A DNA stretch of 64,000 nt from a phage: the sequence record PZ171032.1; one strand, written 5' to 3'. Shown piece after piece: positions 29,575-42,843 of the stretch. Position numbers and translations under genes: made by a program. The notes beneath the pieces were generated by a model, which was not told the origin of the DNA, did no database searches, and saw only the letters and a program-made list of their open reading frames with translations. The stretch's first letter is position 1, and each line of letters opens with the position of its first letter.

Positions 29575-29814
29575 ATGTACAAGTCATTTTCAATTTACTC
29601 AAGACAGGCGAAACACTACACAGAGATCCTGATTACTCAGAAAAAATCTGTAGAAGGTGAGTGGGAATATCACCATAAAATGTTGCGTCCAGATTGGGTT
29701 TTTGATAGACTTATTGCTATGATCCCTCTTGGAGAAGTATACCCTCTGACAGCCCATCGCGATGCTTGGGATTTAATTTATTACATAGATTCATTTAAGG
29801 AGCCTAGATTATGA
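29575..29814 (+). CDS. hypothetical protein
   Basis: Start at MYKSF behind AAGGGGG. Confidence 0.4.
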   Translation: MYKSFSIYSRQAKHYTEILITQKKSVEGEWEYHHKMLRPDWVFDRLIAMIPLGEVYPLTAHRDAWDLIYYIDSFKEPRL

Positions 29815-30209
29815 AGATTGAGATTACTAAAGAAGGTAAGAAAGTGTCCGGCAACTATGCAACAGTAATTCGGGATTTAATGTTTGAAGCCACCAAGATC
29901 GGTACATCTAAAGTTGGTCAAACTGTTAGTGTGAAAAGTAATATCTCCACAGGAGAGAAGGTATTCATTGTGGTCAAAGGGCAGGATCCCGTGGGAGGAA
30001 CAGTGGGCCGAGGTGGCTACCTGTGCATTTCTGAAGAGCCGCGTATGTTAGTGGCTGACGCTACTATGGGTGGGAAACGTGTGTGCGAGGCGGATGAGGT
30101 AATGATTATCCAACCTGTTGATCCAGATGACCCAGCAACTTGGGTGGTAGGAAATGAAATCTTCTCTTTAGAAGAGTTATCCTTCCCAGCACCGCGCTCT
30201 GTTCAGTAA
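29811..30209 (+). CDS. hypothetical protein (MKIEIT... N-terminus)
   Basis: 132-aa ORF. Confidence 0.45.
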   Translation: MKIEITKEGKKVSGNYATVIRDLMFEATKIGTSKVGQTVSVKSNISTGEKVFIVVKGQDPVGGTVGRGGYLCISEEPRMLVADATMGGKRVCEADEVMIIQPVDPDDPATWVVGNEIFSLEELSFPAPRSVQ

Positions 30210-30246
30210 TAATTTATCTTACCAGGGACGGTAGGTAGGAGGTAGC

Positions 30247-30480
30247 ATGAAAGTTAAATTTCTTACAGATTTAGGGTACCCTTCCTTAGTTGACTGCGTT
30301 GGTAAAATTGTGGAAGCAAAACGACTATCTGCAAACGATAATGTTGTCATGGTTAAGGGAAAAGATTTACTATCTGCAGGTGCAGAGTCTGGCAGGATCT
30401 CTCCTGATTATATGTATTACCTATCTTTAAGTAATCTGCCAGAGCGAGGCGGTAAAGGCCTTGAAGTTGTGGAGGAGTGA
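30247..30480 (+). CDS. small acidic protein, paralog family A
   Basis: MKVKFL... VVMVKGKDLLSAGAESG ... GLEVVEE. Confidence 0.55.
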   Translation: MKVKFLTDLGYPSLVDCVGKIVEAKRLSANDNVVMVKGKDLLSAGAESGRISPDYMYYLSLSNLPERGGKGLEVVEE

Positions 30481-31010
30481 CAGGTATGCTTCTGATTAAC
30501 CGGGAAGACCTCTATGGGGACAAAGACCCTGTTGTGTTTGTTGATCGTAGGTGGAGATACACTGAAGAACAATTGGCGGCAAAAAATTTAACTGCAAAAC
30601 GCAGAAAGATCATCCAGTGCAAATACAAATACGCACAGTTTGCTGCAAAAGTGTCTCCACAAATCGAGAGCTTTGTGCTTAAATTGTATGACGAATACCT
30701 CAAATTCAAATTGGATTTTGTACAGGTATACCGTGCACAGATACGCCCAGATACCAACATATGTAGATGGAAGGTTGTTTGTGACGGTAAAGATTTGCCG
30801 CTCAGCTTGACAATTGAGCGGCGTTATGGATATCATGAGTGTGGTCTGTATGATATTTGGGATGTCATTGTAGATCCTGCTAAGTACCTGAACACAGAGG
30901 AGCTGGAATATATCAATAAGGTTATTCTAGATATGTTTTTCAACTACACCCGTGAAAACTCCGAGAAAGAACGAGATAATTTTCTTGACACCATCAGCAA
31001 CCATCTGTAG
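30477..31010 (+). CDS. hypothetical protein
   Basis: 177-aa ORF. Confidence 0.45.
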   Translation: MTGMLLINREDLYGDKDPVVFVDRRWRYTEEQLAAKNLTAKRRKIIQCKYKYAQFAAKVSPQIESFVLKLYDEYLKFKLDFVQVYRAQIRPDTNICRWKVVCDGKDLPLSLTIERRYGYHECGLYDIWDVIVDPAKYLNTEELEYINKVILDMFFNYTRENSEKERDNFLDTISNHL

Positions 31011-31040
31011 TATATAATTTAACCTACAAAGGGAGGACTA

Positions 31041-31277
31041 ATGAGTATAAATGTTGTGCTAATAGGTTACCTGGTAATAGCCGTTATAACGGCGGTATTC
31101 TTGACAGGTGTATGCATCGTGTTCACACGAAGGGTGAAGTTTGATGATTTTATCATTATCATCACTGCTGCACCTTTTTGGCCTGTTGTTATCCCCATCG
31201 TGATAATGTGCCTGGTGGATTACTACAAGAATATCCGTAAGGAGAAAAAGGAGAGTAGGGATGGAGACCGCACCTAA
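31041..31277 (+). CDS. small membrane protein (two predicted TM helices)
   Basis: Hydrophobic stretches VVLIGYLVIAVITAVFLTGVCIVF and IIIITAAPFWPVVIPIVIMCLV. Confidence 0.5.
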   Translation: MSINVVLIGYLVIAVITAVFLTGVCIVFTRRVKFDDFIIIITAAPFWPVVIPIVIMCLVDYYKNIRKEKKESRDGDRT

Positions 31278-31402
31278 AACTGTTTATACTGTTCTTAAAG
31301 AGATTGCGTTCTACGCAGATCTTAGCCAGGCACCTTTATGGGAAAAGAGCATGTATTTAAAATGGTGCGTTAATTTAGGGAGACCTTCCAGTGTTTCAAG
31401 CC

Positions 31403-31510
31403 ATGTTTATTGAGATGCTATCTGGGGTATTGTTACTGGTAGCCATCTTAGGTGGTGCAGTTCTGATGTATAACTATCTTGAAAAAGGAGACAGTAATGG
31501 CAAAAAATAA
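31403..31510 (+). CDS. tiny hydrophobic peptide, 35 aa (tentative)
   Basis: MFIEMLSGVLLLVAILGGAVLMYNYLEKGDSNGKK; below track cutoff; weak SD. Confidence 0.25.
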   Translation: MFIEMLSGVLLLVAILGGAVLMYNYLEKGDSNGKK

Positions 31511-31682
31511 ATCTTTAGAGCAGGCTGAAAACCTTCTCCACGAGCTGGTAAAGGAGTGGAAAGTTGAATACTCAGATTTTAATGCACGGGAGGGTGAAGA
31601 TTATTGGCCTACGGAGCGATCAGAGGGCGAATGGTATCAAGATTTTATAGAGTGGCTATATCAGACGTGTGATGAGGGGTGA
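31497..31682 (+). CDS. hypothetical acidic protein
   Basis: Start at MAKNKSLEQ behind AAGGAG. Confidence 0.45.
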   Translation: MAKNKSLEQAENLLHELVKEWKVEYSDFNAREGEDYWPTERSEGEWYQDFIEWLYQTCDEG

Positions 31683-32140
31683 CGATGTTTGTTAAATATG
31701 TAAAAACGTGCCTCAACAATCTTGGTAGAGAGCATTGGTACACCTTGCTTGAAAAAGGAGAAATTCTAACAAAATCTGGAAAGATAACTTTGATACCCTT
31801 GGACGATAAATACCCGTCACTCCTTGTCATAGATGATTACGTTACAGGTGTATCGTACGAGGTCTCTGTGGAGAGGTTAATACGCAGATCTGGAGGTCCT
31901 TATGACCGAAGAGAGTATGTTTTCGATTCTGTTACAGAGAGGGAAGATCCGTCTCTAATGTTCAGGATGGTAATCAGAGATATGAGGTCATCTATAGACA
32001 GGATCGTAAAGGACATTAAGGAGCCTTTTAGGGTAAAAGTTAAGAAGTTTTTTGATTCTAAGATTAACATACTTGCCGTTGTGCTAGGCGTAATTCAACT
32101 TCTGTTAATTTTGCACTATCTTGAACTGTTGTTTAAGTAG
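31679..32140 (+). CDS. hypothetical protein with C-terminal TM helix
   Basis: 153-aa ORF; C-terminus ILAVVLGVIQLLLILHYL. Confidence 0.45.
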   Translation: MTMFVKYVKTCLNNLGREHWYTLLEKGEILTKSGKITLIPLDDKYPSLLVIDDYVTGVSYEVSVERLIRRSGGPYDRREYVFDSVTEREDPSLMFRMVIRDMRSSIDRIVKDIKEPFRVKVKKFFDSKINILAVVLGVIQLLLILHYLELLFK

Positions 32141-32200
32141 TGTGCAATAAGGCACAAAGGATGTGCCATAACTAAATAAACTAAGAAAGAGGTAGAGAGA

Positions 32201-32548
32201 ATGCCAAAGATTAAATCGATATTAATGTGGGTAGCTGTTGTAGCTTTTGTAGGATACTGGACTTGGGAAACTGAATTAAAAGATATTGGATATACCAGTC
32301 TTGAGAACAAGGCGTGCATTGGCATAACCGATGCATTCAGGCAAAATGCTATGGATCACGAATGTGTCGATGCAGACATAGATGAGAAACTGTCTAAGGA
32401 CAAAGACTTCTACCACGGGTATGCTTTGCTTGATAGTGGGGACACTGTAGAGTTCTGGTCGTGGTTCCGTAAAGATGGAACAATAAAAACAGCAGTAAAG
32501 ATCTCTAACAAAGAGTTAATGCTGTTGCAGCAGAAGGAGGCTCAATGA
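32201..32548 (+). CDS. hypothetical protein with N-terminal TM/signal anchor
   Basis: ILMWVAVVAFVGYWTW. Confidence 0.45.
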   Translation: MPKIKSILMWVAVVAFVGYWTWETELKDIGYTSLENKACIGITDAFRQNAMDHECVDADIDEKLSKDKDFYHGYALLDSGDTVEFWSWFRKDGTIKTAVKISNKELMLLQQKEAQ

Positions 32549-32832
32549 TCTGGATATCCTATGCTGATGGCACCATGCTGTATACTGCAGGTACCAGATA
32601 TGAAGTTCAGGAGAACGATAAAAAATTTATCGTAAGAACATTTGACAAGGACGACAACCTTTTGCTAGAATTAACTTACAAGGTTGGGGATGTATCTAGC
32701 ATCCAATTGGATTGTGGTCATAAAGATAACCCCCTCAAAAAACCTGGAATAGGCAAGGCTTCAGAAGAACGTTTGTCTCGTATTGCAGAAAGCGTTTCTA
32801 ACCAAAAACCCAAAAAGAGGACCAGAAAATGA
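32545..32832 (+). CDS. hypothetical protein
   Basis: 95-aa ORF, overlapping stop/start. Confidence 0.4.
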   Translation: MIWISYADGTMLYTAGTRYEVQENDKKFIVRTFDKDDNLLLELTYKVGDVSSIQLDCGHKDNPLKKPGIGKASEERLSRIAESVSNQKPKKRTRK

Positions 32833-33029
32833 GTGACAAAATTCTTAAATTTAATACCTACTACGAGAATGATTTGAACGATCTGTATTATATAGTGCGT
32901 AGCGAAAACCCGAATGTAGTGCTGTTTTGCAGAGAACCTTTCAAAAGAGAGGAGATTGAATCTACCATGGATGTGGATCAGATTTCACACCTGCTGCTCC
33001 TTGGATCATTAAAAGAGGCAGTATTCTAA
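32829..33029 (+). CDS. hypothetical protein
   Basis: 66-aa ORF. Confidence 0.35.
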   Translation: MSDKILKFNTYYENDLNDLYYIVRSENPNVVLFCREPFKREEIESTMDVDQISHLLLLGSLKEAVF

Positions 33030-33048
33030 ACCAGGGTGGAGGGTTTTT

Positions 33049-33234
33049 ATGAAGCACTATTGTCTATCTGGTAGAATGGGTGCAGATTGTGATTGGGTTT
33101 TCTTAAAACTTGTCAGCATTCGAGAGTTCATCCCGGAGGAAGAGCAAGAAAGCGAGCTGATGTCATGGATCAACCATTACGGTAACACTTTTCGGCATGT
33201 TAAGGTGGAAGAGTTGCCAAGCGAGGCTGATTGA
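33049..33234 (+). CDS. hypothetical protein
   Basis: 61-aa ORF. Confidence 0.35.
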   Translation: MKHYCLSGRMGADCDWVFLKLVSIREFIPEEEQESELMSWINHYGNTFRHVKVEELPSEAD

Positions 33235-33236
33235 CT

Positions 33237-33326
33237 ATGATTGCATCAATATTAACGTTTATGGGCGGCGTGGCATTCGGATTCATTGTTTGCCTGTTTA
33301 TAGTGATTATGTCTATGCGAGGCTGA
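33237..33326 (+). CDS. tiny hydrophobic peptide, 29 aa
   Basis: MIASILTFMGGVAFGFIVCLFIVIMSMRG; fills the gap between two genes exactly. Confidence 0.3.
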   Translation: MIASILTFMGGVAFGFIVCLFIVIMSMRG

Positions 33327-33329
33327 ATT

Positions 33330-33626
33330 ATGAAACTTTTTGAGTGGTTTAAAAAGTTTAAATATAAAGCTGTAGCCATCGTGCCATGGTCCATTCAATG
33401 GGTGGACGATGAGGGATTACCAATTCCAGGTGATAAAGACACGGGATACTGGATCATGCTTGAAAACGGGTTTGGAAAGCGAAAATATACGTGCACAAAC
33501 TCTACTCGATCTGCACTTAATAGAGTGCCTGGTTACAAACTTATGGTTGTGTGGAAAATGTCAGGCGTGCCTCCAGCTAACGCTCAATTTCTTACTGACA
33601 ATCCAACCACGGTGGAGGGAGATTGA
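33330..33626 (+). CDS. hypothetical protein
   Basis: 98-aa ORF. Confidence 0.4.
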   Translation: MKLFEWFKKFKYKAVAIVPWSIQWVDDEGLPIPGDKDTGYWIMLENGFGKRKYTCTNSTRSALNRVPGYKLMVVWKMSGVPPANAQFLTDNPTTVEGD

Positions 33627-33910
33627 CAATGAAAAAGATTAACAGTGGTGAAGTTGAGTTTAAACTTGTCGGGAAAGGCACTTACTGGGAAGTTCGTCAA
33701 AAGGTATATTTGTTCGGTCTTATTCCCTATTGGTCTAAATTCTACTGGGGAGCTAACGAGTTGGGAAGATACGCCACCAAATCAATGGTACTTATTGGTA
33801 TAGCAGAGTACATTGCAGCCAGAGATAGGGTTGGAGACACTTATTACTATACTGCGGACGATATTCGTAACAGTGTTTACGTCCCACAACCACCTGATGG
33901 AGACCGTTGA
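33623..33910 (+). CDS. hypothetical protein
   Basis: 95-aa ORF. Confidence 0.4.
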   Translation: MTMKKINSGEVEFKLVGKGTYWEVRQKVYLFGLIPYWSKFYWGANELGRYATKSMVLIGIAEYIAARDRVGDTYYYTADDIRNSVYVPQPPDGDR

Positions 33911-34134
33911 TGAAAGTTAAAGTTTTAGATTCAAGCTTCTATATTGGTCAGGAGCCTTTAGTAGGAAAAGTGTTTACTGCTATCCCTAACGAAGATTACC
34001 CTGACCTTTTAAAAATAAAAGGAGCAGATCTTATTGCCGCTGGTGCATCTCAGGACTGCTTTGACAGTCAGTGGACCTACAACTTTGCCCTAGGCGAGGA
34101 TGTAGAGGTAGTGGAGGACGATCATGAAGGTTAA
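33907..34134 (+). CDS. small acidic protein, paralog family A (duplicated module 1)
   Basis: MMKVKVLDSS...LLKIKGADLIAAGASQD...DVEVVEDDHEG. Confidence 0.55.
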   Translation: MMKVKVLDSSFYIGQEPLVGKVFTAIPNEDYPDLLKIKGADLIAAGASQDCFDSQWTYNFALGEDVEVVEDDHEG

Positions 34135-34378
34135 AATTCTTGATTCTAACGTCTACTTGGGACAATCCTTCCTGAAGGGAAAGGTCGTTCCTGCGGTATA
34201 CTTTGAAGGGTTGCCGTGGGATGATCCTGTGCGGCAACATCACAGTTATGTAGGCCACAACGTGGTGTTTATCTTGGGATCAGACCTGATCACCGCTGGT
34301 GCACCTGAATATTATTTCGGGGAAGAGTCCTATTATGCCTTTGGGGTAGGGTCAGATGCGGATATTGTAGAGCTGTGA
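34124..34378 (+). CDS. small acidic protein, paralog family A (duplicated module 1)
   Basis: MKVKILDSN...VVFILGSDLITAGAPEY...YYAFGVGSDADIVEL; C-terminus matches 36241 ORF (FAFVVGSDVEVIEE). Confidence 0.55.
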   Translation: MKVKILDSNVYLGQSFLKGKVVPAVYFEGLPWDDPVRQHHSYVGHNVVFILGSDLITAGAPEYYFGEESYYAFGVGSDADIVEL

Positions 34379-34390
34379 TGGGTAACCGTT

Positions 34391-34789
34391 GTGAAAAATA
34401 AACTGTTTAAAGTTACAATGAAAATTCGCGGAGCTTGGAGCGTAAAGCAAGGGCGTATTCCGGAATTTGAGAAAGACTTCTACGTAGTCTCCACCTCGGA
34501 GGAGGCTGCATGCTGGCAGGCTGGCTATGCCTATGCAAGAACCTGGTACGAAGGATACCAGACTGGGGGCTATGACGGAGAAATTATCAGCAAGGGTGTA
34601 GAAGAAATTAATGTGTTGACAAGTGAAAAAGTTTTTGTTATAGTGCATCCAGATTCCAGAGTGAAGCATTACTGGAATGCCAGAACAAAAACTTGGACAC
34701 CGTTTGCAGATTCTGCTACACCACTTTTAAACCAAAAAGCTCTTGACTCTGCCCCAAGCTATGGGGTTGTTGAAGAAAAGCTAAACTGA
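34391..34789 (+). CDS. hypothetical protein, paralog of 36600 ORF (family D)
   Basis: FVIVHPDSRVKHYWNARTKTWTPFADSATPLL aligns with FVMRHPHSNIAYYWDVLNNEWTPDLQKATVL of 36600..36995. Confidence 0.5.
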   Translation: MKNKLFKVTMKIRGAWSVKQGRIPEFEKDFYVVSTSEEAACWQAGYAYARTWYEGYQTGGYDGEIISKGVEEINVLTSEKVFVIVHPDSRVKHYWNARTKTWTPFADSATPLLNQKALDSAPSYGVVEEKLN

Positions 34790-34806
34790 AACAGTGAGGT
34801 GTCACT

Positions 34807-35097
34807 ATGATGGATTTAGTTCTGAATATTGATAACGCAGGAGAGGTTAAAGACGATGGTGTAACAAGCATGGACCAACCATGCCCTGCCAAGATTGACT
34901 CAAAATGGACATATAAGTTTGACGGAGAGATCTTTGCAAATGATGAAAAGGTTGTAGATGCTGCAGCCATTTTGAACGCTCTAGGGTACGACCCTGTGAA
35001 TTCTTTGATCAAGGATCCTGTTGAGTTTGCAGAGTATGTTCGAAAAATGGCAGATCTTGCTGTAGATATTTTAGATACTATCGATAATAAGCTGTAA
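34807..35097 (+). CDS. hypothetical protein
   Basis: 96-aa ORF. Confidence 0.4.
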   Translation: MMDLVLNIDNAGEVKDDGVTSMDQPCPAKIDSKWTYKFDGEIFANDEKVVDAAAILNALGYDPVNSLIKDPVEFAEYVRKMADLAVDILDTIDNKL

Positions 35098-35103
35098 AAA
35101 CTG

Positions 35104-35132
35104 TTGACACAACGCTTCAGCTATAGTATTAT
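35104..35132 (+). promoter_or_regulatory. sigma70-type promoter (TTGACA-17-TATTAT) upstream of the HPF-like gene
   Basis: Consensus hexamers read directly. Confidence 0.7.
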
Positions 35133-35184
35133 TGTTTTCAAAGAGAGATGGTTGTTATTCTCTCTTCCTTAAAAGGAGCACGTT

Positions 35185-35502
35185 ATGCAAATTGAAATCA
35201 CTGGCAACGTAGAAATCACTGAAGGTATGGTGTCTTTCATTTCCCACAAAATGTCTAAGCTGGAGCGTTTGCACCCCTCTGCCAACTATGCACGTGTTAG
35301 TGTAAAAGTTGAAAATGATCACCAGGAAGTTATGGCGTTCATTTTTGACAATTCTGGAAAAGAAGTTATTGCCAAAGCTAAAGGCAGTGATGCTTACGAG
35401 GCAACTGACCGTATGGTAGATGTTGCAGCACGTCAGCTGGCTAAATGCGGTGGAAAGAAAGGTAAGGGGAAAGGCAAAGTAAAGATTGACTTTGGAGAAT
35501 GA
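35185..35502 (+). CDS. ribosome hibernation promoting factor / RaiA (YfiA)-family protein with Lys/Gly-rich tail
   Basis: MQIEITGNVEITEGMVSFISHKMSKLE...VSVKVE...AKAKGSDAYEATDRMVDVAARQLAK matches recalled E. coli HPF (MQLNITGNNVEITEALREFVTAKFAKLE...VLKVE...ASAEGQDMYAAIDGLIDKLARQLTK). Confidence 0.75.
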   Translation: MQIEITGNVEITEGMVSFISHKMSKLERLHPSANYARVSVKVENDHQEVMAFIFDNSGKEVIAKAKGSDAYEATDRMVDVAARQLAKCGGKKGKGKGKVKIDFGE

Positions 35503-35511
35503 GGTGCTACA

Positions 35512-35613
35512 ATGGGCGTGATTAAGAAATTAGTCCCAAATGTAGAGATTGCATGCTTTGAAATTATGTTTGCAATCGCAGTTGTAGTTAATGTGTTAGG
35601 TTACGGCTATTAA
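35512..35613 (+). CDS. tiny hydrophobic peptide, 33 aa
   Basis: GAGGTG SD; MGVIKKLVPNVEIACFEIMFAIAVVVNVLGYGY. Confidence 0.3.
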   Translation: MGVIKKLVPNVEIACFEIMFAIAVVVNVLGYGY

Positions 35614-35639
35614 TATCAAATAATTGAGGAGACCTCTAA

Positions 35640-35909
35640 ATGAAAATTAAATTATTCAAAACTGAGCTGGCAGACAAAAATTGTGGTCTGGTTGAAGGCA
35701 TGATTGTTGAAGCACAACCAGTGGACTATATGAAGGTGGTTCGTGATGCCCTGGGTGAAGGTTTTGATCTGATGGAGCCAGCTCTGCGGGAAGATGTTAT
35801 CGAGATGGCTAAAAAGCACACACCTGAAGGTTTGGTGGTGTTTATTGCACCGGGTAACGGAGAAGAGTTGATTGTAACTCCTGATGTGTATGAGATTGTA
35901 GAGGAATAA
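35640..35909 (+). CDS. small acidic protein, paralog family A
   Basis: MKIKLF... ends VYEIVEE. Confidence 0.5.
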   Translation: MKIKLFKTELADKNCGLVEGMIVEAQPVDYMKVVRDALGEGFDLMEPALREDVIEMAKKHTPEGLVVFIAPGNGEELIVTPDVYEIVEE

Positions 35910-35999
35910 TCCTGCTTGTATTAGCATACTTCCTCGATAAGGAAGGTTTGTAATTATTTGTGGGAAAGGAATCCCATCTCTTACCAGAGGTGATACTAT

Positions 36000-36263
36000 A
36001 TGATTGTTTATTTTAAAACTTCAGGTGGATACCCTGATTCTCAAAGCTTGATCGGAAAAACGTGCACAGCATACTCACCTCTTGATGAGGAGGTAAGCGA
36101 TATTCTACGAAATATGTATCGGATTGATCCCCAAGAAGCTTTTGATCAAAACCTTGTATTTGTCAAAGGCTCAGACATGAAGTCTTTGGGAGCATTCCCT
36201 GAAGCAGATGATGATGCCGTTTATTCGTTCATGACCCCTTTTGAAGCTATGGTTGTTGGGTGA
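36000..36263 (+). CDS. small acidic protein, paralog family A (duplicated module 2)
   Basis: ...LVFVKGSDMKSLGAFPE... Confidence 0.5.
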   Translation: MIVYFKTSGGYPDSQSLIGKTCTAYSPLDEEVSDILRNMYRIDPQEAFDQNLVFVKGSDMKSLGAFPEADDDAVYSFMTPFEAMVVG

Positions 36264-36600
36264 TAATATGAAAGTACGCTTTATTGGTGAAACAATTCCT
36301 GTGCATCTCCGGTCGCCTGAAGATTCTGCGGATCTTGCATCTCAGAAGGCGAGAGGTTATGATAAGAAAGTAATCTCAACCGATGTAGAACTTGAGGCTA
36401 CTAGTCTACCTGACCCTGCTGCATTCTTTAATCATTATGGATACTATTTCAGCAATCTGATGAATATCGGTGAGCTTGTGTTTATTAGTGGTGGAGAAAT
36501 TGTTAGCAAGCTTGGCGGAGATCCGGATGTCTTTCATGAAACCTGTCCTTTTGCATTTGTGGTGGGTTCGGATGTGGAAGTTATTGAGGAGGTGCAGTAA
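36241..36600 (+). CDS. small acidic protein, paralog family A (duplicated module 2)
   Basis: MKVRFIG...LVFISGGEIVSKLGGDPD...FAFVVGSDVEVIEEVQ. Confidence 0.55.
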   Translation: MKLWLLGDNMKVRFIGETIPVHLRSPEDSADLASQKARGYDKKVISTDVELEATSLPDPAAFFNHYGYYFSNLMNIGELVFISGGEIVSKLGGDPDVFHETCPFAFVVGSDVEVIEEVQ

Positions 36601-36995
36601 TGGTAAGCCTATACCGTGTTGAGTATAGCTCAGATACTGTATACAACGTAAGAAGCAAAGATCGCAGCGACAGAGTGCAAGAAATGTATGTTCTTGCCGA
36701 CAGTCCGTTATCTGCAGCGTTCAAGGCAGGGGCTCTTGCATCTCGTTGGAAATTTGAAGGCGGATCTTTCTATGAAGAAACCCTTGAAGATTCTGTTGTT
36801 ATTTCTTCTGTAGAGGTTTCAGATGACTACGAAGGGAAAAAGTTCGTAATGCGGCACCCACACAGCAACATTGCGTACTACTGGGATGTTCTGAACAACG
36901 AGTGGACCCCAGATCTTCAGAAGGCCACTGTGCTAACACCGTTTTTGGCAGATAAGTTCCCACCAGAAGGTAATTTATCCGCACTGTTTCAGTAA
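36600..36995 (+). CDS. hypothetical protein, paralog of 34391 ORF (family D)
   Basis: See 34391..34789; same position relative to two family-A genes. Confidence 0.5.
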   Translation: MVSLYRVEYSSDTVYNVRSKDRSDRVQEMYVLADSPLSAAFKAGALASRWKFEGGSFYEETLEDSVVISSVEVSDDYEGKKFVMRHPHSNIAYYWDVLNNEWTPDLQKATVLTPFLADKFPPEGNLSALFQ

Positions 36996-37013
36996 TTTTC
37001 TTGCACACAGGTG

Positions 37014-37042
37014 TTGACAACACCAACCCTGTGTGAAATAAT
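37014..37042 (+). promoter_or_regulatory. sigma70-type promoter (TTGACA-17-AATAAT) with flanking inverted repeat ACACAGG/CCTGTGT
   Basis: Read directly. Confidence 0.55.
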
Positions 37043-37071
37043 ACCTTCATCTTAACAAGACGGGAGACTGA

Positions 37072-37332
37072 TTGATGAAGATTAAACTGAAAAACCTTGA
37101 AATGGCAGAGATTCAGAATGGTGTTGATTTCCGCTCTAAAGATGGTGACATCTTAGAGGTAAATCTTCCAACCTACGAGCTGATTAAAGGTTTTGGCAAC
37201 GTTCAGGAAGAGGATATTCCAGAAATTCTTATGATGTTGATTCTTGACGGAACTGTGTTTGTAGGTGAAGGTGAGAACGCTATTGCAATCCCAGGCCATT
37301 TTTATGAAGTAGTTGACGAAGAGGTGCTGTAA
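37072..37332 (+). CDS. small acidic protein, paralog family A
   Basis: MMKIKLK... ends FYEVVDEEVL. Confidence 0.5.
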   Translation: MMKIKLKNLEMAEIQNGVDFRSKDGDILEVNLPTYELIKGFGNVQEEDIPEILMMLILDGTVFVGEGENAIAIPGHFYEVVDEEVL

Positions 37333-37683
37333 ATGAAAGTAGAAATTACTGGTTTTGATGTTAGTGTGGTTCCGGAAGATATTTTAGCTAAACTCCCGGA
37401 AGGTTTTGGTAACGGTGTTGTGGTGGATGCTGTTCCTCCTACTAAAGACATTCTGCTGCAGTATGGTGTAGCAGAGGAAGATGTCGATAAAGTTCTTACA
37501 ATGATGGCAATCGATCGTGTTGTCGTTGTTAAAGGTCTCGATAATTTTGAGAGTGATCCTCTGATTATTCGCGGGGATGACTATAAAATCATCGATAATG
37601 AAGGCCAAGAGTTCTATGAGCCTTGTGCAGAAGATATTCTTAACTTATTACTGGAAGCAGGCACCGAAGAGGAGGACGAATAA
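37333..37683 (+). CDS. small acidic protein, paralog family A
   Basis: MKVEITG...RVVVVKGLDNFESDP... acidic tail EAGTEEEDE. Confidence 0.5.
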   Translation: MKVEITGFDVSVVPEDILAKLPEGFGNGVVVDAVPPTKDILLQYGVAEEDVDKVLTMMAIDRVVVVKGLDNFESDPLIIRGDDYKIIDNEGQEFYEPCAEDILNLLLEAGTEEEDE

Positions 37684-38012
37684 TGAAGATTGACCCGTTA
37701 CTGAAGGCTCGTGCAGAAAAAGCGTACACCATTAAGCTGACCAACCTGGTTCCTACTTGTCATCCAGATGTAGGTTGGCCTGAAGGTCTGGTAGAGGGGA
37801 CTGTAACAGCTGCATACCTTCCTAACATCAAATACCTTATGGAAATCTTAGAGATGGATGAGGAAACTGCAGAACAGTTCCAGTTGGATATGAAACAGAG
37901 TGGGACTCTGGTTATTCACGGGTGGTATAATACTAAAGATGCAGAAGACCCTCTGGTAACTTCTAATCTGGCATATGAAATCTTAGGGCCTTTGAACCTG
38001 GAGGAAGACTAA
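37683..38012 (+). CDS. small acidic protein (family A-like)
   Basis: MKIDPL... ends LNLEED. Confidence 0.45.
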   Translation: MKIDPLLKARAEKAYTIKLTNLVPTCHPDVGWPEGLVEGTVTAAYLPNIKYLMEILEMDEETAEQFQLDMKQSGTLVIHGWYNTKDAEDPLVTSNLAYEILGPLNLEED

Positions 38013-38299
38013 TGAAAGATCTGGTTAAGATTAAGATTAAAGATACCAATGGGGAGCTCAGCCATTTTGGAATTAATGATGGTGACGAGCTGATCGCACA
38101 CCTGCCTACCAAGGAGGTTGTAAGCAAAGCAGTTGCCGGAGAAGAAGCTGCAATGCAGGCTGCAGGTGTGGATGAAAACTATGTAGCTATGTGCATGTGC
38201 CGAGATCAGGTTGTTCTGTATAAAGCGTATCGACCAAACGGAGCCACGGAGTGGCTTGTATTCCGACCCGAAGGATATGAAATCTTAGAGGCACTATGA
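38012..38299 (+). CDS. small acidic protein (family A-like)
   Basis: MKDLVKIKIK... ends GYEILEAL. Confidence 0.45.
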   Translation: MKDLVKIKIKDTNGELSHFGINDGDELIAHLPTKEVVSKAVAGEEAAMQAAGVDENYVAMCMCRDQVVLYKAYRPNGATEWLVFRPEGYEILEAL

Positions 38300-38379
38300 T
38301 AAATCTTGCCAAGGTTGCAACGGCACTGTTAATTATTTGCTGGTCAGTAACCTTAACACTGTGTCTTGTATTTCAGTGA
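38296..38379 (+). CDS. tiny hydrophobic peptide, 27 aa
   Basis: ATGA overlap with upstream stop; MINLAKVATALLIICWSVTLTLCLVFQ. Confidence 0.3.
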   Translation: MINLAKVATALLIICWSVTLTLCLVFQ

Positions 38380-38388
38380 GGTGCTTGT

Positions 38389-38652
38389 ATGAACATCCTG
38401 ATGTGGGTTATAGCAGTGGCGTTTGTTGCATGTTTTTGCTGCTGGGTTGTGGTGAGGATTTCTGTAGCTACCCTTCGGAAGTTGGGGTTCTCAGAATGGG
38501 ATATTAATATCCTTTCTTTTCGCAATGAAACAATCTCAGCCGCCCTGCTTTGTAAGAAATTTAAGTGGGAACCTTGTGAGGTCATGAGCTATCTAAGAAC
38601 AGGCGATATCCCTGAAAGATTTAAAAAAGTTCTTGACGGCAAGGATAAATGA
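38389..38652 (+). CDS. small membrane protein
   Basis: N-terminal TM ILMWVIAVAFVACFCCWVVV. Confidence 0.45.
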   Translation: MNILMWVIAVAFVACFCCWVVVRISVATLRKLGFSEWDINILSFRNETISAALLCKKFKWEPCEVMSYLRTGDIPERFKKVLDGKDK

Positions 38653-38807
38653 CAGTATAGTGACTAACAAGAGGTGAGGGGTGACTGATTTTACTGAAGC
38701 TTTAATGATGGCCTTGTCTGTTTTAGCGCTATCGGTGTGTTTTGGGGCGTTATTCACATCTCTGGTTAAAGTTTTACATACAGTATTATTACCCAAGGGG
38801 CGCAGTA

Positions 38808-39059
38808 ATGACGAAGATTGACTTGAATGCTGGCGATCATGTTGTTGTCAAATGCATTGGAGATTATCTTGGATTCACAATCGGCAATACTTACGAGGCG
38901 ATAGTGGCGAAGGTTTATCATGATAAAGTCCTCAGTCTTGTATTTGACTGCGATGATGATGGGGATGACCGATACGTCTGTGAGGTGCTGGCACGAGACG
39001 ATAGTGAAGACCAGAAATTTCTGGTTATTGAACTGAACGGTATTTTTGTAGAACGTTAA
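38808..39059 (+). CDS. hypothetical acidic protein
   Basis: Start at MTKIDLNAGDH; the track ORF starts upstream at 38742. Confidence 0.45.
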   Translation: MTKIDLNAGDHVVVKCIGDYLGFTIGNTYEAIVAKVYHDKVLSLVFDCDDDGDDRYVCEVLARDDSEDQKFLVIELNGIFVER

Positions 39060-39087
39060 TTTAAAACAACATAAGGAGACTCTTACT

Positions 39088-39393
39088 ATGGCTAAATCTA
39101 AAGTTGAACTGTTCACCTCTCTTCCTTCTGACACTGCAGAGCGTGATCGCCTTCGCAAAACAATCGAAGAACTGGTGGAACTCCAACTTCAGATTAAAGA
39201 TCTGAAAGATGCCATTAAGGATATCATTCTCGTTGAGAAGCAGGATCATCTGTATTCTCCTAAATTCATCAAATCTTTGGTGGCTACAGAGTTTGATATC
39301 CGCTACGAAGCTGAAAAACGTCGCGCTAAGATTGAAGAAGAGGTTGAGCACATGTCTGAGGCAGACATTCTGTTCAAACGCTCTGTAGAATAA
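39088..39393 (+). CDS. hypothetical coiled-coil protein
   Basis: AAGGAG SD; heptad-like sequence. Confidence 0.5.
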   Translation: MAKSKVELFTSLPSDTAERDRLRKTIEELVELQLQIKDLKDAIKDIILVEKQDHLYSPKFIKSLVATEFDIRYEAEKRRAKIEEEVEHMSEADILFKRSVE

Positions 39394-39400
39394 TATGGCA

Positions 39401-39430
39401 GAGGGGCTACGGCCCCTCTTTCACTATTTG
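39401..39430 (+). terminator. rho-independent terminator (GAGGGGC-tacg-GCCCCTC + TTTCACTATTT)
   Basis: Read directly. Confidence 0.65.
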
Positions 39431-39445
39431 CAAAAGGAACCAGCT

Positions 39446-39772
39446 ATGAGAATGCCAATCACTGTGAAAGAGCTAAATGAACGTGATGCAGGTGGTCTAT
39501 GGCCTGCACGAAAAATCCGCTGCGTCTATATGAAAGAGAATCTTGAACACCTTGATCAACAGATCAAGGTCGGTGATATTTTCGAGGTCTTCTATTCCAA
39601 TCGTCGCAACTGGGAAACCATTCAGCCTTCTGGTTTTGTTCTTGCCAAACTTGACACTGGAGAAGTGATTATCCCTGGGTTGGATATTGTCTTCGAAATT
39701 ATCCAGGAGTGGGATCCGGATAAGATTAGATACGAAGAATTATTCGGTAAAGGTATTATCAAACCTGTGTGA
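39446..39772 (+). CDS. hypothetical protein
   Basis: Start moved to MRMPITV downstream of the terminator hairpin. Confidence 0.45.
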   Translation: MRMPITVKELNERDAGGLWPARKIRCVYMKENLEHLDQQIKVGDIFEVFYSNRRNWETIQPSGFVLAKLDTGEVIIPGLDIVFEIIQEWDPDKIRYEELFGKGIIKPV

Positions 39773-40080
39773 GGTGGATTATGTCTACAAAGGCAGCTAA
39801 ATACTCTTATATGCCATCAACCTCTGCAGAGGTAGACTTTAGTTTCGATGTATTTCCACTGTTTGAGGTGGTTCTGGCATACCCTACAATACTATCTACA
39901 CCTGAATCACTTGTGCCTGTTAAGTTGCAGAACGCTATGCATTCCATGCACTACAACAATAAATGTAGGCACAGATGGTGTCAGGACGAGGAAAAAGATT
40001 TGGATAGTTTGAGGGATTTTGACAGTCACCTTTTGACACCTTTTAGCTACTCCAATCTTGATAAGCCCTCTTGGGTATAG
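39769..40080 (+). CDS. hypothetical protein
   Basis: 103-aa ORF. Confidence 0.4.
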   Translation: MRWIMSTKAAKYSYMPSTSAEVDFSFDVFPLFEVVLAYPTILSTPESLVPVKLQNAMHSMHYNNKCRHRWCQDEEKDLDSLRDFDSHLLTPFSYSNLDKPSWV

Positions 40081-40104
40081 CAAAATATCAAATTTAAGAC
40101 ACCT

Positions 40105-40134
40105 AGGACGCTCTGTGGCGTCCTTTTCTTTATC
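40105..40134 (+). terminator. rho-independent terminator (AGGACGC-tctgtg-GCGTCCT + TTTCTTTAT)
   Basis: Read directly. Confidence 0.75.
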
Positions 40135-40293
40135 TGGTGCACGATTGCATACCTTTGACAGATAATCTCATTACAGAGCGTTTAAGAGCTTCCTACAAAC
40201 AAATCTCTCTTTCGAGCGTAGCGAGAACGCACGTCCGTTTTGACCCAAATCACCATACGCTCGGATTTTAACCAAACCCTCGCGGCGTTTCTG

Positions 40294-40322
40294 TTGACAC
40301 ATTACCGCTTCAGTGATAGTAT
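40294..40322 (+). promoter_or_regulatory. sigma70-type promoter (TTGACA-17-TAGTAT)
   Basis: Read directly; drives the small peptide gene at 40343. Confidence 0.55.
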
Positions 40323-40342
40323 CCACACATAGTTTGGAGAAT

Positions 40343-40444
40343 ATGGAATACACAATGAAAACACTGTCAGAGGTTTTAGTGGTGATCCTGATGATCATTA
40401 CGTCCATAGCAGCTGTTGCCGGAATACTCACGGGTGGAACATGA
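40343..40444 (+). CDS. tiny hydrophobic peptide, 33 aa
   Basis: GGAG SD; MEYTMKTLSEVLVVILMIITSIAAVAGILTGGT; stop overlaps next start (ATGA). Confidence 0.35.
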   Translation: MEYTMKTLSEVLVVILMIITSIAAVAGILTGGT

Positions 40445-40653
40445 TCAACACACATGCATCTGAAGAGATATCCGAAGGAGTGACCATATGTCCCTTGGCT
40501 GAGCTAGGGAAAGAGGAAAACTTCGATTCTGAAGATTCTCCATCTCCGTCCCAGGGAGACCCTGAGGCTGATGACCTAACGTGGGAGGATATCATAGCCA
40601 TCTGGTTCTCTATTATGCCTGAGCACGAAGAGTTCAGAGGTGGGAGACTATGA
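40441..40653 (+). CDS. hypothetical acidic protein
   Basis: 70-aa ORF coupled to the upstream peptide gene. Confidence 0.4.
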   Translation: MINTHASEEISEGVTICPLAELGKEENFDSEDSPSPSQGDPEADDLTWEDIIAIWFSIMPEHEEFRGGRL

Positions 40654-40774
40654 AGCACCGAGCCCACACAGGTTCCTCATGCTTTAGCATGGCCTGAAGA
40701 GGCAAACGTGCATAATTCCTGTGCATTGGAACGTATAAAACCCTGTTCACACTCTCATTTCCAGAGGAGATTTC

Positions 40775-40990
40775 ATGAAAATAGAAATATTTGGTGGGGC
40801 TGACAACACTCGTGGCCTGATTTACCTTGAATTCGATGAATCATACCTGCCAGAGGTGTTAAATATGGACTCTGTTGCTGAGGCTTTGGGGGTAAGTCCT
40901 AAAGAACTCCACTCTTGTGCTGAGATCGATGGTTGGGAAGAGACCATGAACATTGATTTCAGTGAAGTAGGTGATGAACCGCTGGACTGA
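40775..40990 (+). CDS. small acidic protein (family A-like), last gene of the rightward block
   Basis: MKIEIFGG... acidic C-terminus. Confidence 0.45.
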   Translation: MKIEIFGGADNTRGLIYLEFDESYLPEVLNMDSVAEALGVSPKELHSCAEIDGWEETMNIDFSEVGDEPLD

Positions 40991-41119
40991 CACACAATAT
41001 TAGATGTCCGGCTAAAGTGCTGGAAGCACCTATAGCATATCTTTCAACTAAATTTCCTACCACCACAATCACTTACCTCCCACACATGACTGTTTGCTTG
41101 TTTAGTGAGCAGTCATGCC

Positions 41120-41147
41120 TTGACATTCTTGCCTATCCTGATAAAAT
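41120..41147 (+). promoter_or_regulatory. candidate sigma70 promoter (TTGACA-16-TAAAAT) firing into the ORF-free region
   Basis: Read directly; no ORF of 60 aa or more follows for about 900 bp. Confidence 0.4.
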
Positions 41148-42489: not shown

Positions 42490-42590
42490 TGACACTTTTA
42501 CACACCTATTAGTTTACACACTGGATTGTTTACATTCCTGATTGTTCACATGCTAACCATTTACATGATTGACTGTTTACACACCGATAA
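42490..42590. repeat. iteron-like array: six copies of a TTTACA(C/T)-containing motif at roughly 15-bp spacing
   Basis: Read directly: cTTTTACACAcc, aGTTTACACAct, tGTTTACATtc, tGTTCACATgc, cATTTACATga, tGTTTACACAcc. Confidence 0.6.
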
Positions 42591-42594
42591 TCAG

Positions 42595-42843
42595 CCATGC
42601 CATTCGTTTGCATGACAATAATTATACATGACAATAATCGCACTGATTATAATTAGCATGACATAATATAAAAGCAGGGCAACTATTAGCAGATCTATAG
42701 TTGCCCTGCTTGTTATGTCATGATTAACTAAATACAAGGCAACTATGATCTGATTAATAGTTTGCAGACAAACTATCACGGGGGTGATGGTTACTGCTTT
42801 TATATTATGTCGCGACTCCGTCGCGCCATGCCATTCGTTTGCA
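42595..42843. repeat. direct repeat pair CCATGCCATTCGTTTGCAT (about 230 bp apart) flanking a perfect 14-bp-stem palindrome (42673-42710) and CATGACAATAAT repeats
   Basis: Read directly. Confidence 0.6.

What the first reader, a model, noticed from the sequence alone, without database searches (positions are those of the whole stretch)
29811..40990. Tandem, segmentally duplicated array of small acidic paralogous proteins (family A, at least 10 members, plus family D pairs)
At least ten ORFs of 70-120 aa start MK(V/I)(K/E)(I/F/L), share an internal (V/I)x(V/I)KGxDL(I/L)xAGA-like strand and end in an acidic G(S)D(V/A)E(V/I)(V/I)E(E) tail. A three-gene module (family A, family A, family D) is present twice, at 33907..34789 and 36000..36995, with matching C-termini (YYAFGVGSDADIVEL vs FAFVVGSDVEVIEEVQ; FVIVHPDSRVKHYWN..WTP vs FVMRHPHSNIAYYWD..WTP). 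Rapidly diversifying acidic paralogs in an early region are candidates for DNA mimics or anti-defence proteins, but I recognise no known family.
Basis: seen in the sequence. Interest (0 to 1): 0.7.

Follow-up and report, generated by a model that had tools for sequence, protein, structure and literature searches.

The report
Paralogous small-protein array in rV5-like phage
An rV5-like E. coli phage carries twelve small accessory genes from three uncharacterised families, two of them predicted to be SH3-like barrels; published transposon data show that one three-gene block is dispensable on lab E. coli but required on a clinical strain, so their function can now be tested directly.

Summary
The window is a Vequintavirus (rV5-like coliphage). 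The repeated-ORF pattern is real, but it is not one family of ten or more members.

- **Family alpha (5 genes):** 30247, 33910, 34124, 36000, 36268.
- **Family beta (5 genes):** 35640, 37075, 37333, 37683, 38012.
- **Family D (2 genes):** 34391, 36600.
- **Not members:** ORFs 29811 and 40775 share only the N-terminal MK(I/V)E-type motif.

AlphaFold models of one alpha and one beta protein (pLDDT 92 and 89) are both five-stranded SH3-like barrels. Beta carries a helical insert where three alpha members also carry inserts. Sequence homology between alpha and beta is not established (hhalign P about 1e-3).

None of the three families matches Pfam, NCBIfam or PDB. Alpha corresponds to PHROG 5009/13367 (unknown function). 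It also occurs as a single gene in other phages and prophages, and as tandem domains within one protein.

The genes are under purifying selection (dN/dS 0.02-0.21). The array is 92-98% conserved across more than 115 genomes, so it is not rapidly diversifying.

Supplementary HIDEN-SEQ data for phage Bas54 show that insertions in the orthologues of 36000, 36268 and 36600 vanish on clinical E. coli CFE311 but are tolerated on K-12.

Best reading: these are host-specific accessory factors, probably counter-defence. They are not DNA mimics.

The parts
30247..30480 (+). alpha-1, 77 aa, SH3-like family alpha (rv5_gp122 / bas54_0166)
   Evidence: phrog_5009 E 8e-36. hhalign to 33910 gives P 2.9e-11. 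In the tree it groups with lambdoid-prophage homologues at 83% bootstrap. No phenotype on CFE311.
33910..34134 (+). alpha-2, 74 aa; first gene of module 1 (rv5_gp135 / bas54_0159)
   Evidence: phrog_5009 E 4e-38. The AlphaFold model has pLDDT 91.9 and is a five-stranded SH3-like barrel. It overlaps the next gene by 11 nt.
34124..34378 (+). alpha-3, 84 aa; second gene of module 1 (rv5_gp136 / bas54_0158)
   Evidence: hhalign to 33910 gives P 4.3e-14. phrog_5009 E 3e-32. Natural chimeras between 33910 and 34124 exist (P0011, P0016).
34391..34789 (+). D1, 132 aa from a GTG start (123 aa from the internal ATG used in Bas54); third gene of module 1 (rv5_gp137 / bas54_0157)
   Evidence: phrog_7379 E 4e-74. 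Homologous to 36600: blastp 2e-8, hhalign 1.7e-10. log2FC -2.14 with adjusted p of 0 on CFE311. Absent from L005 and truncated in Bas59.
35104..35132 (+). sigma-70-like promoter (11 of 12 positions), annotated as P144 in rV5, upstream of the HPF gene
35640..35909 (+). beta-1, 89 aa (rv5_gp141 / bas54_0153)
   Evidence: hhalign to 38012 gives P 1.2e-4 over 85 columns. The beta HMM scores E 5.5e-29. 'Intermediate' on K-12; log2FC -2.78 on CFE311, not significant.
36000..36263 (+). alpha-4, 87 aa, with a helical-type insert between beta2 and beta3; first gene of module 2 (rv5_gp142 / bas54_0152)
   Evidence: The alpha HMM scores E 2e-20. Weak match to phrog_5009, E 1e-4. 100% amino-acid identity to bas54_0152, which has log2FC -7.16 and zero reads on CFE311.
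36268..36600 (+). alpha-5, 110 aa, with long inserts; second gene of module 2 (rv5_gp143 / bas54_0151)
   Evidence: The alpha HMM scores E 1.4e-15. hhalign to 34124 gives P 8.5e-7. bas54_0151 has log2FC -6.17 and zero reads on CFE311.
36600..36995 (+). D2, 131 aa; third gene of module 2. Its start overlaps the stop of 36268 by 1 nt (rv5_gp144 / bas54_0150).
   Evidence: phrog_7379 E 2e-66. bas54_0150 has log2FC -6.77 and zero reads on CFE311, and is fully non-essential on K-12 (25 of 25 TA sites hit). Junction shown.
37014..37042 (+). sigma-70-like promoter (11 of 12 positions, extended -10), annotated as P150 in rV5, upstream of the beta block
37075..37332 (+). beta-2, 85 aa (rv5_gp145 / bas54_0149)
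   Evidence: The AlphaFold model has pLDDT 89.2 and is an SH3-like barrel with a helical insert. hhalign to 37333 gives P 1.6e-6.
37333..37683 (+). beta-3, 116 aa, with an acidic C-terminal extension (rv5_gp146 / bas54_0148)
   Evidence: hhalign to 37075 gives P 1.6e-6 and to 37683 gives P 5.6e-6. Net charge -21.
37683..38012 (+). beta-4, 109 aa (rv5_gp147 / bas54_0147)
   Evidence: hhalign to 37333 gives P 5.6e-6. The beta HMM scores E 1.6e-23.
38012..38299 (+). beta-5, 95 aa (rv5_gp148 plus gp149, split in the rV5 reference; bas54_0146)
   Evidence: hhalign to 35640 gives P 1.2e-4. The beta HMM scores E 4e-22. The orthologue is split into two ORFs in rV5.

Best explanation
The region is the accessory part of a long rightward transcription unit of an rV5-like coliphage. 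It is driven by host-type promoters.

**What is there.** It encodes twelve real, conserved small proteins from three families:
- alpha, an SH3-like beta-barrel with a conserved G-x-D/E-L-x-x-A-G-A helix;
- beta, the same barrel with a helical insert;
- D, about 131 aa, fold unknown.

**Proposed function.** They are dispensable for growth on laboratory E. coli. They act as host-strain-specific infection factors, most probably by binding and neutralising host proteins through protein-protein contacts (counter-defence).

**Proposed unit.** The tightly packed block 36000-36268-36600 (alpha, alpha, D) works as one unit that the phage needs on E. coli CFE311. D1 contributes weakly on the same host. 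The remaining alpha and beta paralogues are presumed to serve other hosts or targets.

**Shown:**
- the gene families and their limits;
- the predicted fold of alpha and beta;
- purifying selection;
- non-essentiality on K-12;
- loss of insertion mutants on CFE311.

**Inferred:**
- early or middle expression;
- action by protein binding;
- that the CFE311 barrier is an immune system;
- that the three proteins cooperate.
For: - **Identity of the window:** Vequintavirus, 95-98% identical to phiWec193, nimi and rV5.
- **Families:**
- **Real genes:** dN/dS is 0.02-0.21 against four relatives, and orthologues are retained in a relative with only 29-73% amino-acid identity.
- **Accessory character:**
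  - no Pfam, NCBIfam or PDB match;
  - natural deletions, a split gene and chimeras exist;
  - alpha homologues sit in moron-type positions of temperate coliphages, between the Q antiterminator and the holin, and in the replication module of a 42.5-kb phage.
- **Functional data (preprint 10.1101/2025.11.20.689424, Extended Data Table 8):**
  - on K-12, bas54_0146-0159 and bas54_0166 are 'non-essential' or 'intermediate';
  - on CFE311, bas54_0152, 0151 and 0150 have log2FC -7.16, -6.17 and -6.77 with zero reads at 14, 21 and 24 TA sites and adjusted p of 0, and bas54_0157 has log2FC -2.14 with adjusted p of 0;
  - the mapping to the window genes is 96-100% amino-acid identity;
  - the transposon lacks a terminator, and the authors argue against widespread polarity;
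  - insertions in the upstream HPF gene have no effect.
- **Operon-like packing:** spacings of +4 and -1 nt within module 2.
- **Neighbour:** 39781-40080 corresponds to bas54_0140, reported in the same preprint as an anti-defence gene against DS-28.
Against: - No host target or defence system has been matched to the block. The preprint's authors did not follow up these genes.
- bas54_0151, 0152 and 0153 are already 'intermediate' on K-12, with lower insertion counts. The block may therefore have a general role that simply matters more in CFE311.
- Local polarity or translational coupling could make the alpha phenotypes secondary to loss of D2.
- Seven of the ten alpha and beta genes show no phenotype in the one clinical host for which data are readable.
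- The sheet titled CFE303 duplicates the CFE311 numbers, so no second host is available.
- Expression timing was not measured.
Confidence: 0.5

Rival explanations
1. Only the D proteins are the active host-range or counter-defence factors. The loss of insertions in the two upstream alpha genes would then be a polar or translational-coupling effect, and alpha and beta would have an unrelated or no important role.
For: - Both D copies are depleted on CFE311 (bas54_0150 at -6.77, bas54_0157 at -2.14), whereas the module-1 alpha genes just upstream of D1 are not.
- The 36268/36600 junction overlaps by 1 nt, and the Shine-Dalgarno sequence of D2 lies inside the alpha-5 coding tail.
Against: - Insertions in the module-1 alpha genes do not reduce fitness even though D1 lies 12 nt downstream. 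Polarity is therefore not general.
- The transposon was designed for read-through, and the authors report little polarity.
- Alpha genes are under strong purifying selection.
- Alpha genes occur without D in many other phages.
Confidence: 0.15
2. Alpha and beta are general host-takeover or gene-expression modulators rather than inhibitors of immune systems. They could, for example, bind RNA polymerase, the ribosome or a nucleoid protein through a KOW- or SH3-like barrel. The CFE311 phenotype would then reflect strain physiology.
For: - The structural neighbours include Spt5/NusG KOW domains and ribosomal L24.
- The genes flank a phage HPF/RaiA homologue.
- bas54_0151-0153 already show 'intermediate' insertion tolerance on K-12.
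Against: - There is no Pfam KOW match at E up to 0.1.
- The proteins are acidic, which does not favour direct nucleic-acid binding.
- Most members are fully dispensable on K-12.
- The depletion on CFE311 is all-or-none, as is typical of conditional, barrier-type requirements.
Confidence: 0.2
3. They are DNA mimics, acting like Ocr or ArdA to decoy restriction enzymes or other DNA-binding defence proteins.
For: - The proteins have low pI (median 4.4-4.5) and acidic tails.
Against: - The compact five-stranded barrel of about 75-85 residues is not an elongated mimic of B-form DNA.
- Net charge is only -1 to -12 for most members, and the neighbouring genes are similarly acidic.
- Part of the acidic tail is the embedded ribosome-binding site of the next gene.
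- No Ocr or ArdA family match was found.
- Vequintavirinae are reported to be exceptionally susceptible to restriction-modification systems (PMC8594841).
Confidence: 0.03
4. The similarity is chance or compositional: short acidic ORFs with common N-termini, and no real families.
For: - ORFs 29811 and 40775 share only the N-terminal motif.
- The alpha-beta link is weak (P about 1e-3).
Against: - Within-family P values reach 4e-14.
- PHROG assignments are independent of this analysis.
- The deep HMM search recovers full-length homologues in unrelated phages.
- The fold predictions are confident.
- The motif is enriched: 9 observed against fewer than 0.1 expected.
Confidence: 0.02

Closest known systems
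PHROG families phrog_5009, 13367, 7345 and 8603 (unknown function)
   Same: Three alpha genes match phrog_5009 at E 3e-32 to 4e-38. Remote homologues from the deep search match phrog_5009 and phrog_13367.
   Different: These are catalogue clusters with no function, fold or literature attached. Alpha-4 and alpha-5 are filed in separate PHROGs (13920, 13661). The five beta genes sit in five single-genus PHROGs, so the catalogue does not show the families as defined here.
SH3-like small beta-barrel superfamily (SH3, KOW of Spt5/NusG, PsaE, retroviral integrase C-terminal domain)
Small uncharacterised proteins of other phages with the same predicted fold (BFVD: Citrobacter phage Merlin, Cronobacter CS01, Shigella Sf20, RB49, Vibrio VpV262)
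   Same: Foldseek TM-scores of 0.7-0.87 over the full length at 14-28% identity.
   Different: None has a known function. Most are single genes, not arrays.
Experimentally found phage anti-defence genes in the same genome type (bas54_0140 and the bas54_0063 MoxR ATPase, both against DS-28)
   Same: They come from the same screen and the same host (CFE311) with the same kind of phenotype. The bas54_0140 orthologue lies about 2.8 kb downstream of D2, inside the flagged interval.
   Different: There is no sequence relationship. For alpha, alpha and D no cognate defence system was tested.
DNA-mimic anti-restriction proteins (Ocr, ArdA)
   Same: Small, acidic, and encoded among early or accessory genes.
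   Different: The fold differs, the charge density is far lower, and there is no family match.

Membership tests
phrog_5009 (PHROGs v4, unknown function) | Significant full-length match to the family HMM | tested here: met
   30247, 33910 and 34124 match at E 8e-36, 4e-38 and 3e-32. 36000 matches weakly at E 1e-4. 36268 is not listed by PHROGs but is recovered by the alpha HMM built here at E 1.4e-15.
SH3-like small beta-barrel fold | Five antiparallel strands forming a closed or partly open barrel in the canonical order | tested here: met
Eukaryote-type SH3 or KOW domain (sequence family) | Match to the Pfam SH3 or KOW models (peptide-binding ALYDY/WW residues, or the KOW glycine-lysine motif) | tested here: not met
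   No Pfam family at E up to 0.1 for any alpha or beta protein. No PDB sequence match.
   There are two clusters of five. Profile-profile comparison of alpha against beta gives Prob 17-27%, P 0.7-1.4e-3. ORFs 29811 and 40775 are unlinked.
   Alpha and beta share the same barrel and strand order. The beta insert lies at the beta2-beta3 position, where alpha-3, alpha-4 and alpha-5 also carry inserts. This is compatible with distant homology but is not proof.
Segmental duplication of a three-gene module | Collinear repeated gene order | tested here: met
   The order (alpha, alpha, D) occurs at 33910-34789 and at 36000-36995.
Segmental duplication of a three-gene module | Positional counterparts are each other's closest relatives; residual DNA similarity remains | tested here: not met
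   - 33910 is closest to its neighbour 34124 (hhalign score 71.8), not to 36000 (23.8).
- 36000 against 36268 scores only 22.3.
- The tree gives no support for cross-module pairs.
- No DNA repeat links the modules.
- D1 and D2 share only 27% identity.
DNA-mimic anti-restriction proteins (Ocr/ArdA type) | Family HMM match; elongated surface with a DNA-like array of carboxylates | tested here: not met
   No Pfam match. The models are compact beta-barrels. Acidic residues make up 13-25% and net charge is -1 to -21. Surface electrostatics were not computed.
Anti-defence gene (functional definition) | Dispensable on a defence-free host, but required when a specific defence system is present | tested here: inconclusive
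   Literature data only. The orthologues of 36000, 36268 and 36600 are tolerated on K-12 and lost on CFE311. The responsible host locus is not identified and no clean deletions have been made.
Known defence or anti-defence catalogues | Match to a curated model | not tested
   The PADLOC library was not scanned; it holds host defence proteins, not anti-defence proteins. No anti-defence HMM library was available.

The most novel reading that the evidence does not exclude
The block alpha-alpha-D (36000-36995) is a previously unrecognised three-protein counter-defence module that disarms a still-unidentified immune system of E. coli CFE311. The SH3-like alpha domain (the PHROG 5009/13367 clan) would then be a widespread phage 'adaptor' fold for immune evasion. 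It occurs as single genes, as tandem genes and as tandem domains within one protein in many phages and prophages. The beta block would be its sister radiation, aimed at other hosts.
Probability: 0.3. Interest if true: 0.7.

Novelty: new variant of a known kind. Interest (0 to 1): 0.5.

Why it matters
rV5-like phages are among the most frequently isolated coliphages and are used in therapy and biocontrol cocktails. About half of their genes have no assigned function.

This analysis turns a stretch of twelve 'hypothetical proteins' into three defined families, with a confident predicted fold for two of them. It also links one block to an existing but undiscussed experimental phenotype: it is required on a uropathogenic isolate and dispensable on K-12.

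That makes a concrete experiment possible, namely finding the host barrier and the binding partner. It also nominates a widespread, uncharacterised small phage domain as a candidate host-interaction module.

The analysis corrects the impression of rapid diversification. The paralogues are old and conserved. This fits a standing repertoire aimed at different targets better than an ongoing arms race at this locus.

Tried and rejected
1. **Curated family searches.** Pfam, NCBIfam and PDB sequence searches for alpha, beta and D returned nothing above noise.
2. **Merging alpha and beta by profile-profile comparison.** With small and with enlarged profiles the result stays at P about 1e-3, so they were not merged.
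3. **Adding 29811 and 40775 to a family.** Rejected; only the first 6-15 residues align.
4. **Looking for alpha-D fusion proteins among the deep-search hits.** None found. The C-terminal domains fused to alpha elsewhere are unrelated to D.
5. **Giant repeat proteins in the deep search.** P0073 and P0085, and by the same hit pattern probably P0102 and P0111, were set aside. P0073 and P0085 were read and match through repeated 'V-x-KGD-x-L-x-AGAKY'-like strands of adhesin- or Ig-type repeats. They are judged spurious.
6. **IMG/VR scan for divergent syntenic loci using the HPF neighbour.** Only near-identical contigs were found.
7. **DNA repeats between the two modules.** None beyond a 30-nt remnant between 33910 and 34124.
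8. **Literature.** Searches by rV5 protein accession and by PHROG id found no papers. The rV5 genome paper does not mention paralogues. The mEp021 and EdH4 papers say nothing on these genes.
9. **Rfam scan of 28-45 kb.** No hits.
10. **Data for a second clinical host (CFE303).** Not recoverable, because the stored sheet repeats the CFE311 numbers.
11. **The rV5 annotation note linking gp137 (D1) to a Listeria phage A118 protein.** Not reproduced. D homologues are confined to rV5-like phages.

Full report
**Context**

The 11-kb interval is 95-98% identical to more than 115 Vequintavirus genomes, including rV5, phiWec193, nimi and the BASEL phages. In rV5 it corresponds to rv5_gp121-gp158. Almost all of these are annotated 'hypothetical protein'. 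All genes are on the + strand.

GC skew changes sign near 41 kb. All twelve of the strongest sigma-70-like promoter matches in 28.5-42.5 kb are on the + strand. They include the two annotated in rV5, at 35104-35132 and 37014-37042. The rV5 paper places the region in a long transcription unit (genes 82-163) that also holds the replication and nucleotide-metabolism genes, and it does not mention paralogues. 'Early' is therefore an inference, not a measurement.

Yes, in outline.

- The N-terminal motif M(M)K[VI][KER][IFLV] is found in 9 of 186 ATG-ORFs of the window. All nine are in this interval on the + strand, against fewer than 0.1 expected.
- All-against-all blastp and hhalign on window/L005 orthologue pairs for 29 genes (406 comparisons) give three clean clusters:
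  - alpha: 30247, 33910, 34124, 36000, 36268; P from 4e-14 to 3e-3;
  - beta: 35640, 37075, 37333, 37683, 38012; the best links are 1.6e-6, 5.6e-6 and 1.2e-4, and the rest run from 1e-3 to 4e-2 but are full-length and collinear;
  - D: 34391 and 36600; P 1.7e-10.
- HMMs built from these sets find exactly 5, 5 and 2 genes in all six frames of the 64-kb window.
- The 'VxVKGxDLxxAGA' motif belongs to alpha alone.

The acidic tail is partly a coding by-product. In eight of the ten alpha and beta genes the next gene begins within -11 to +12 nt of the stop. In the six junctions printed, the terminal Glu codons (GAGGAGG, GAAGAGG, GGAGGA) are that gene's Shine-Dalgarno sequence. Remote homologues in other phages also end in E-(V/I)-(V/I)-E-E, so the last strand with an acidic end is also a family trait.

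**One family or two?**

Profile-profile comparison of alpha against beta gives Prob 27% (P 6.7e-4) with small profiles and 17% (P 1.4e-3) with enlarged ones. It aligns only the first two strands. Control genes score P of 0.02 or worse.

AlphaFold2 models built on family alignments are confident:

| Model | pLDDT | pTM | Elements (DSSP) |
|---|---|---|---|
| alpha, 33910 | 91.9 | 0.79 | strands 2-5, 21-23, 33-37; helix 38-43; strands 56-61, 65-69 |
| beta, 37075 | 89.2 | 0.75 | strands 2-5, 26-28; helices 34-38, 45-57; strands 61-63, 70-72, 77-80 |

The beta helical insert lies between beta2 and beta3. Alpha-3, alpha-4 and alpha-5 carry their inserts at the same position.

My reading is two sequence families with one fold and one architecture. 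Common ancestry is plausible but unproven.

**Distribution**

- In a 5.8-billion-protein database, alpha, beta and D are essentially confined to rV5-like phages. The exception is a 75-aa alpha protein of E. coli prophages.
- That prophage gene lies between the Q antiterminator and the holin. It is present in 13 of 5,426 complete E. coli genomes and in the temperate coliphages mEp010 and mEp021.
- An exhaustive HMM search of 1.84 billion representatives finds 46 proteins at E up to 1e-3. Most are 63-87-aa proteins with the consensus MKVKLLNDGGY..GM...GKV..A...V.I.G.ELI.AGA...F...Y.F..G.E.EIVEE.
- Some hits carry two or three tandem alpha domains in one polypeptide (P0082, P0084, P0107). Others carry an alpha domain fused to unrelated C-terminal parts (P0104, P0095, P0106, P0094).
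- The sequenced repeat proteins among the long hits (P0073, P0085) are spurious matches.
- None of these proteins has a Pfam domain. Their PHROGs are all 'unknown function'.
- One homologue sits between a primase-polymerase and the AAA_24/DUF669/helicase genes of a 42.5-kb phage, which has a second copy elsewhere.
- Foldseek against BFVD finds many small uncharacterised phage proteins with TM-scores of 0.7-0.87.

**Evolution**

- The array is not rapidly diversifying. Pairwise dN/dS against rV5, FV3, S127 BCL3 and an IMG/VR contig is 0.02-0.21 for every alpha, beta and D gene wherever dS is usable. This is indistinguishable from the neighbours.
- A divergent metagenomic relative (L005, 128 kb) keeps all five alpha, all five beta and D2 at 29-73% amino-acid identity. 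It has an unrelated gene in place of D1 and an extra gene after D2.
- In a neighbour-joining tree each paralogue pairs with its L005 orthologue at 98-100% bootstrap. 30247 groups with prophage homologues (83%) rather than with its genomic siblings. No cross-module pairing is supported.
- No DNA similarity links the modules.
- The closest pair is the adjacent 33910/34124. Natural 33910::34124 chimeras exist.
- The repeated (alpha, alpha, D) order is real. It reflects old events, possibly an (alpha, D) duplication followed by local alpha duplication, rather than a recognisable segmental duplication.
- Natural losses occur:
  - Bas59 fuses 30477 to the C-terminus of D1 and so lacks module 1;
  - Bas54 lacks 31679-33330;
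  - the rV5 reference has beta-5 split into two ORFs.

**Function**

Phage MaxBurger (MZ501093) is Bas54 of the BASEL collection. Its genes map to the window at 94-100% amino-acid identity.

The HIDEN-SEQ preprint (10.1101/2025.11.20.689424) reports genome-wide transposon insertion data for Bas54. On K-12, all alpha, beta and D genes are 'non-essential', except bas54_0151, 0152 and 0153, which are 'intermediate'.

The TRANSIT resampling table compares K-12 with the uropathogenic isolate CFE311:

| Bas54 gene | Window gene | log2FC on CFE311 | TA sites | Reads | Adjusted p |
|---|---|---|---|---|---|
| bas54_0152 | 36000 (alpha-4) | -7.16 | 14 | 0 | 0 |
| bas54_0151 | 36268 (alpha-5) | -6.17 | 21 | 0 | 0 |
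| bas54_0150 | 36600 (D2) | -6.77 | 24 | 0 | 0 |
| bas54_0157 | 34391 (D1) | -2.14 | 19 | reduced | 0 |
| bas54_0153 | 35640 (beta-1) | -2.78 | 12 | reduced | not significant |

The other alpha and beta genes are within ±1.

These genes are not mentioned in the main text. The authors followed up only bas54_0063 and bas54_0140, both against the predicted system DS-28. The transposon has no terminator, and the authors argue against widespread polarity. Insertions in the upstream HPF gene are neutral.

Caveats:

- These are single-screen supplementary data.
- The sheet labelled CFE303 contains the CFE311 command line and numbers.
- Local translational coupling is possible.
- The host determinant is unknown.

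**Mechanism**

I commit to the following, at about 0.5 confidence. These are accessory, host-strain-specific infection factors that work by protein-protein binding. The alpha-alpha-D block at 36000-36995 acts as a unit against a barrier present in CFE311, most likely an immune system.

The fold, a small adaptor-type barrel with a conserved helix and tyrosine, fits a binding role. So do the tandem-domain and fusion variants, the moron-like positions in temperate phages, the dispensability on K-12 and the all-or-none loss on CFE311.

The DNA-mimic idea is rejected on three grounds: fold, charge density and the embedded ribosome-binding sites. The rivals that remain open are 'D only, with polar effects' and 'general takeover factor'.

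**Novelty**

The genes are catalogued as hypothetical proteins and as unknown-function PHROGs. I found no paper describing the families, their fold or the phenotype. They belong to a known kind of thing, phage accessory or counter-defence cassettes, but are built from components with no characterised relatives.

Noticed in passing
window 39781-40080 (+): This is the orthologue (99% amino-acid identity) of bas54_0140. The HIDEN-SEQ preprint reports that Bas54 needs this gene to overcome the predicted defence system DS-28 of E. coli CFE311. It lies inside the flagged interval but is unrelated to alpha, beta or D.
   Followed up: partly
window 35185-35502 (+): Phage-encoded ribosome hibernation factor (HPF/RaiA; Pfam PF02482, E 1.8e-12). 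It sits between the two modules and is non-essential on both K-12 and CFE311 in the Bas54 data. Several GenBank records also label the neighbouring beta-1 gene (35640) 'sigma 54 modulation factor'; the Pfam scan found no family for it.
   Followed up: partly
window ~41000-43400: This is an ORF-poor stretch of about 2.4 kb at the strand and GC-skew switch. It corresponds to the bas54_0134/0135 intergenic region, where HIDEN-SEQ recovered no transposon insertions. It may be a replication origin or another essential cis element. No Rfam family matched.
   Followed up: partly
window 29811-30209 and 40775-40990 (+): Both ORFs begin MKIEI, like the alpha and beta genes, but show no detectable homology to them. 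29811 belongs to phrog_5748. 40775 and its neighbour 40441 are very acidic (pI 4.05, net charge -15).
   Followed up: partly
window 33910-38299, gene junctions: The acidic C-terminal Glu codons of the upstream gene double as the Shine-Dalgarno sequence of the next gene. Examples are GAGGAGG in '...IEEVQ*' before 36600 and GAAGAGGAGGA in '...TEEEDE*' before 37683. This indicates translational coupling and a dual coding constraint.
   Followed up: yes
L016 (Bas59 EduardKellenberger), L014 (Bas54 MaxBurger), L001 (rV5): Natural structural variants exist. Bas59 fuses the 30477 orthologue to the C-terminus of D1 and loses about 3.5 kb, including module 1. Bas54 lacks 31679-33330. The rV5 reference has the beta-5 gene split into two ORFs. 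Metagenomic proteins P0011 and P0016 are 33910::34124 chimeras.
   Followed up: yes
Supplement of preprint 10.1101/2025.11.20.689424 (Extended Data Table 8): Sheet Data S6 is titled K-12_vs_CFE303, but its command line names the CFE311 files. A later block of the same table (read, presumably Data S7) gives identical values for all rows compared (bas54_0060-0168). The CFE303 comparison therefore seems to be missing. In the CFE311 data, bas54_0123-0134, which lie across the intergenic gap, are also depleted 4- to 36-fold.
   Followed up: partly
GenBank MG0656xx records: Eighteen records named 'Campylobacter phage', with host listed as Campylobacter jejuni, are 95-97% identical to this rV5-like coliphage over the whole 11-kb interval. 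This suggests mislabelled or contaminant genomes.
   Followed up: no
L002-L004, L015 (E. coli prophages, phage mEp021): A 75-aa alpha homologue (42-49% identical to 30247) lies in a run of small unknown genes between the Q antiterminator and the holin of temperate coliphages. It is present in 13 of 5,426 complete E. coli genomes.
   Followed up: partly
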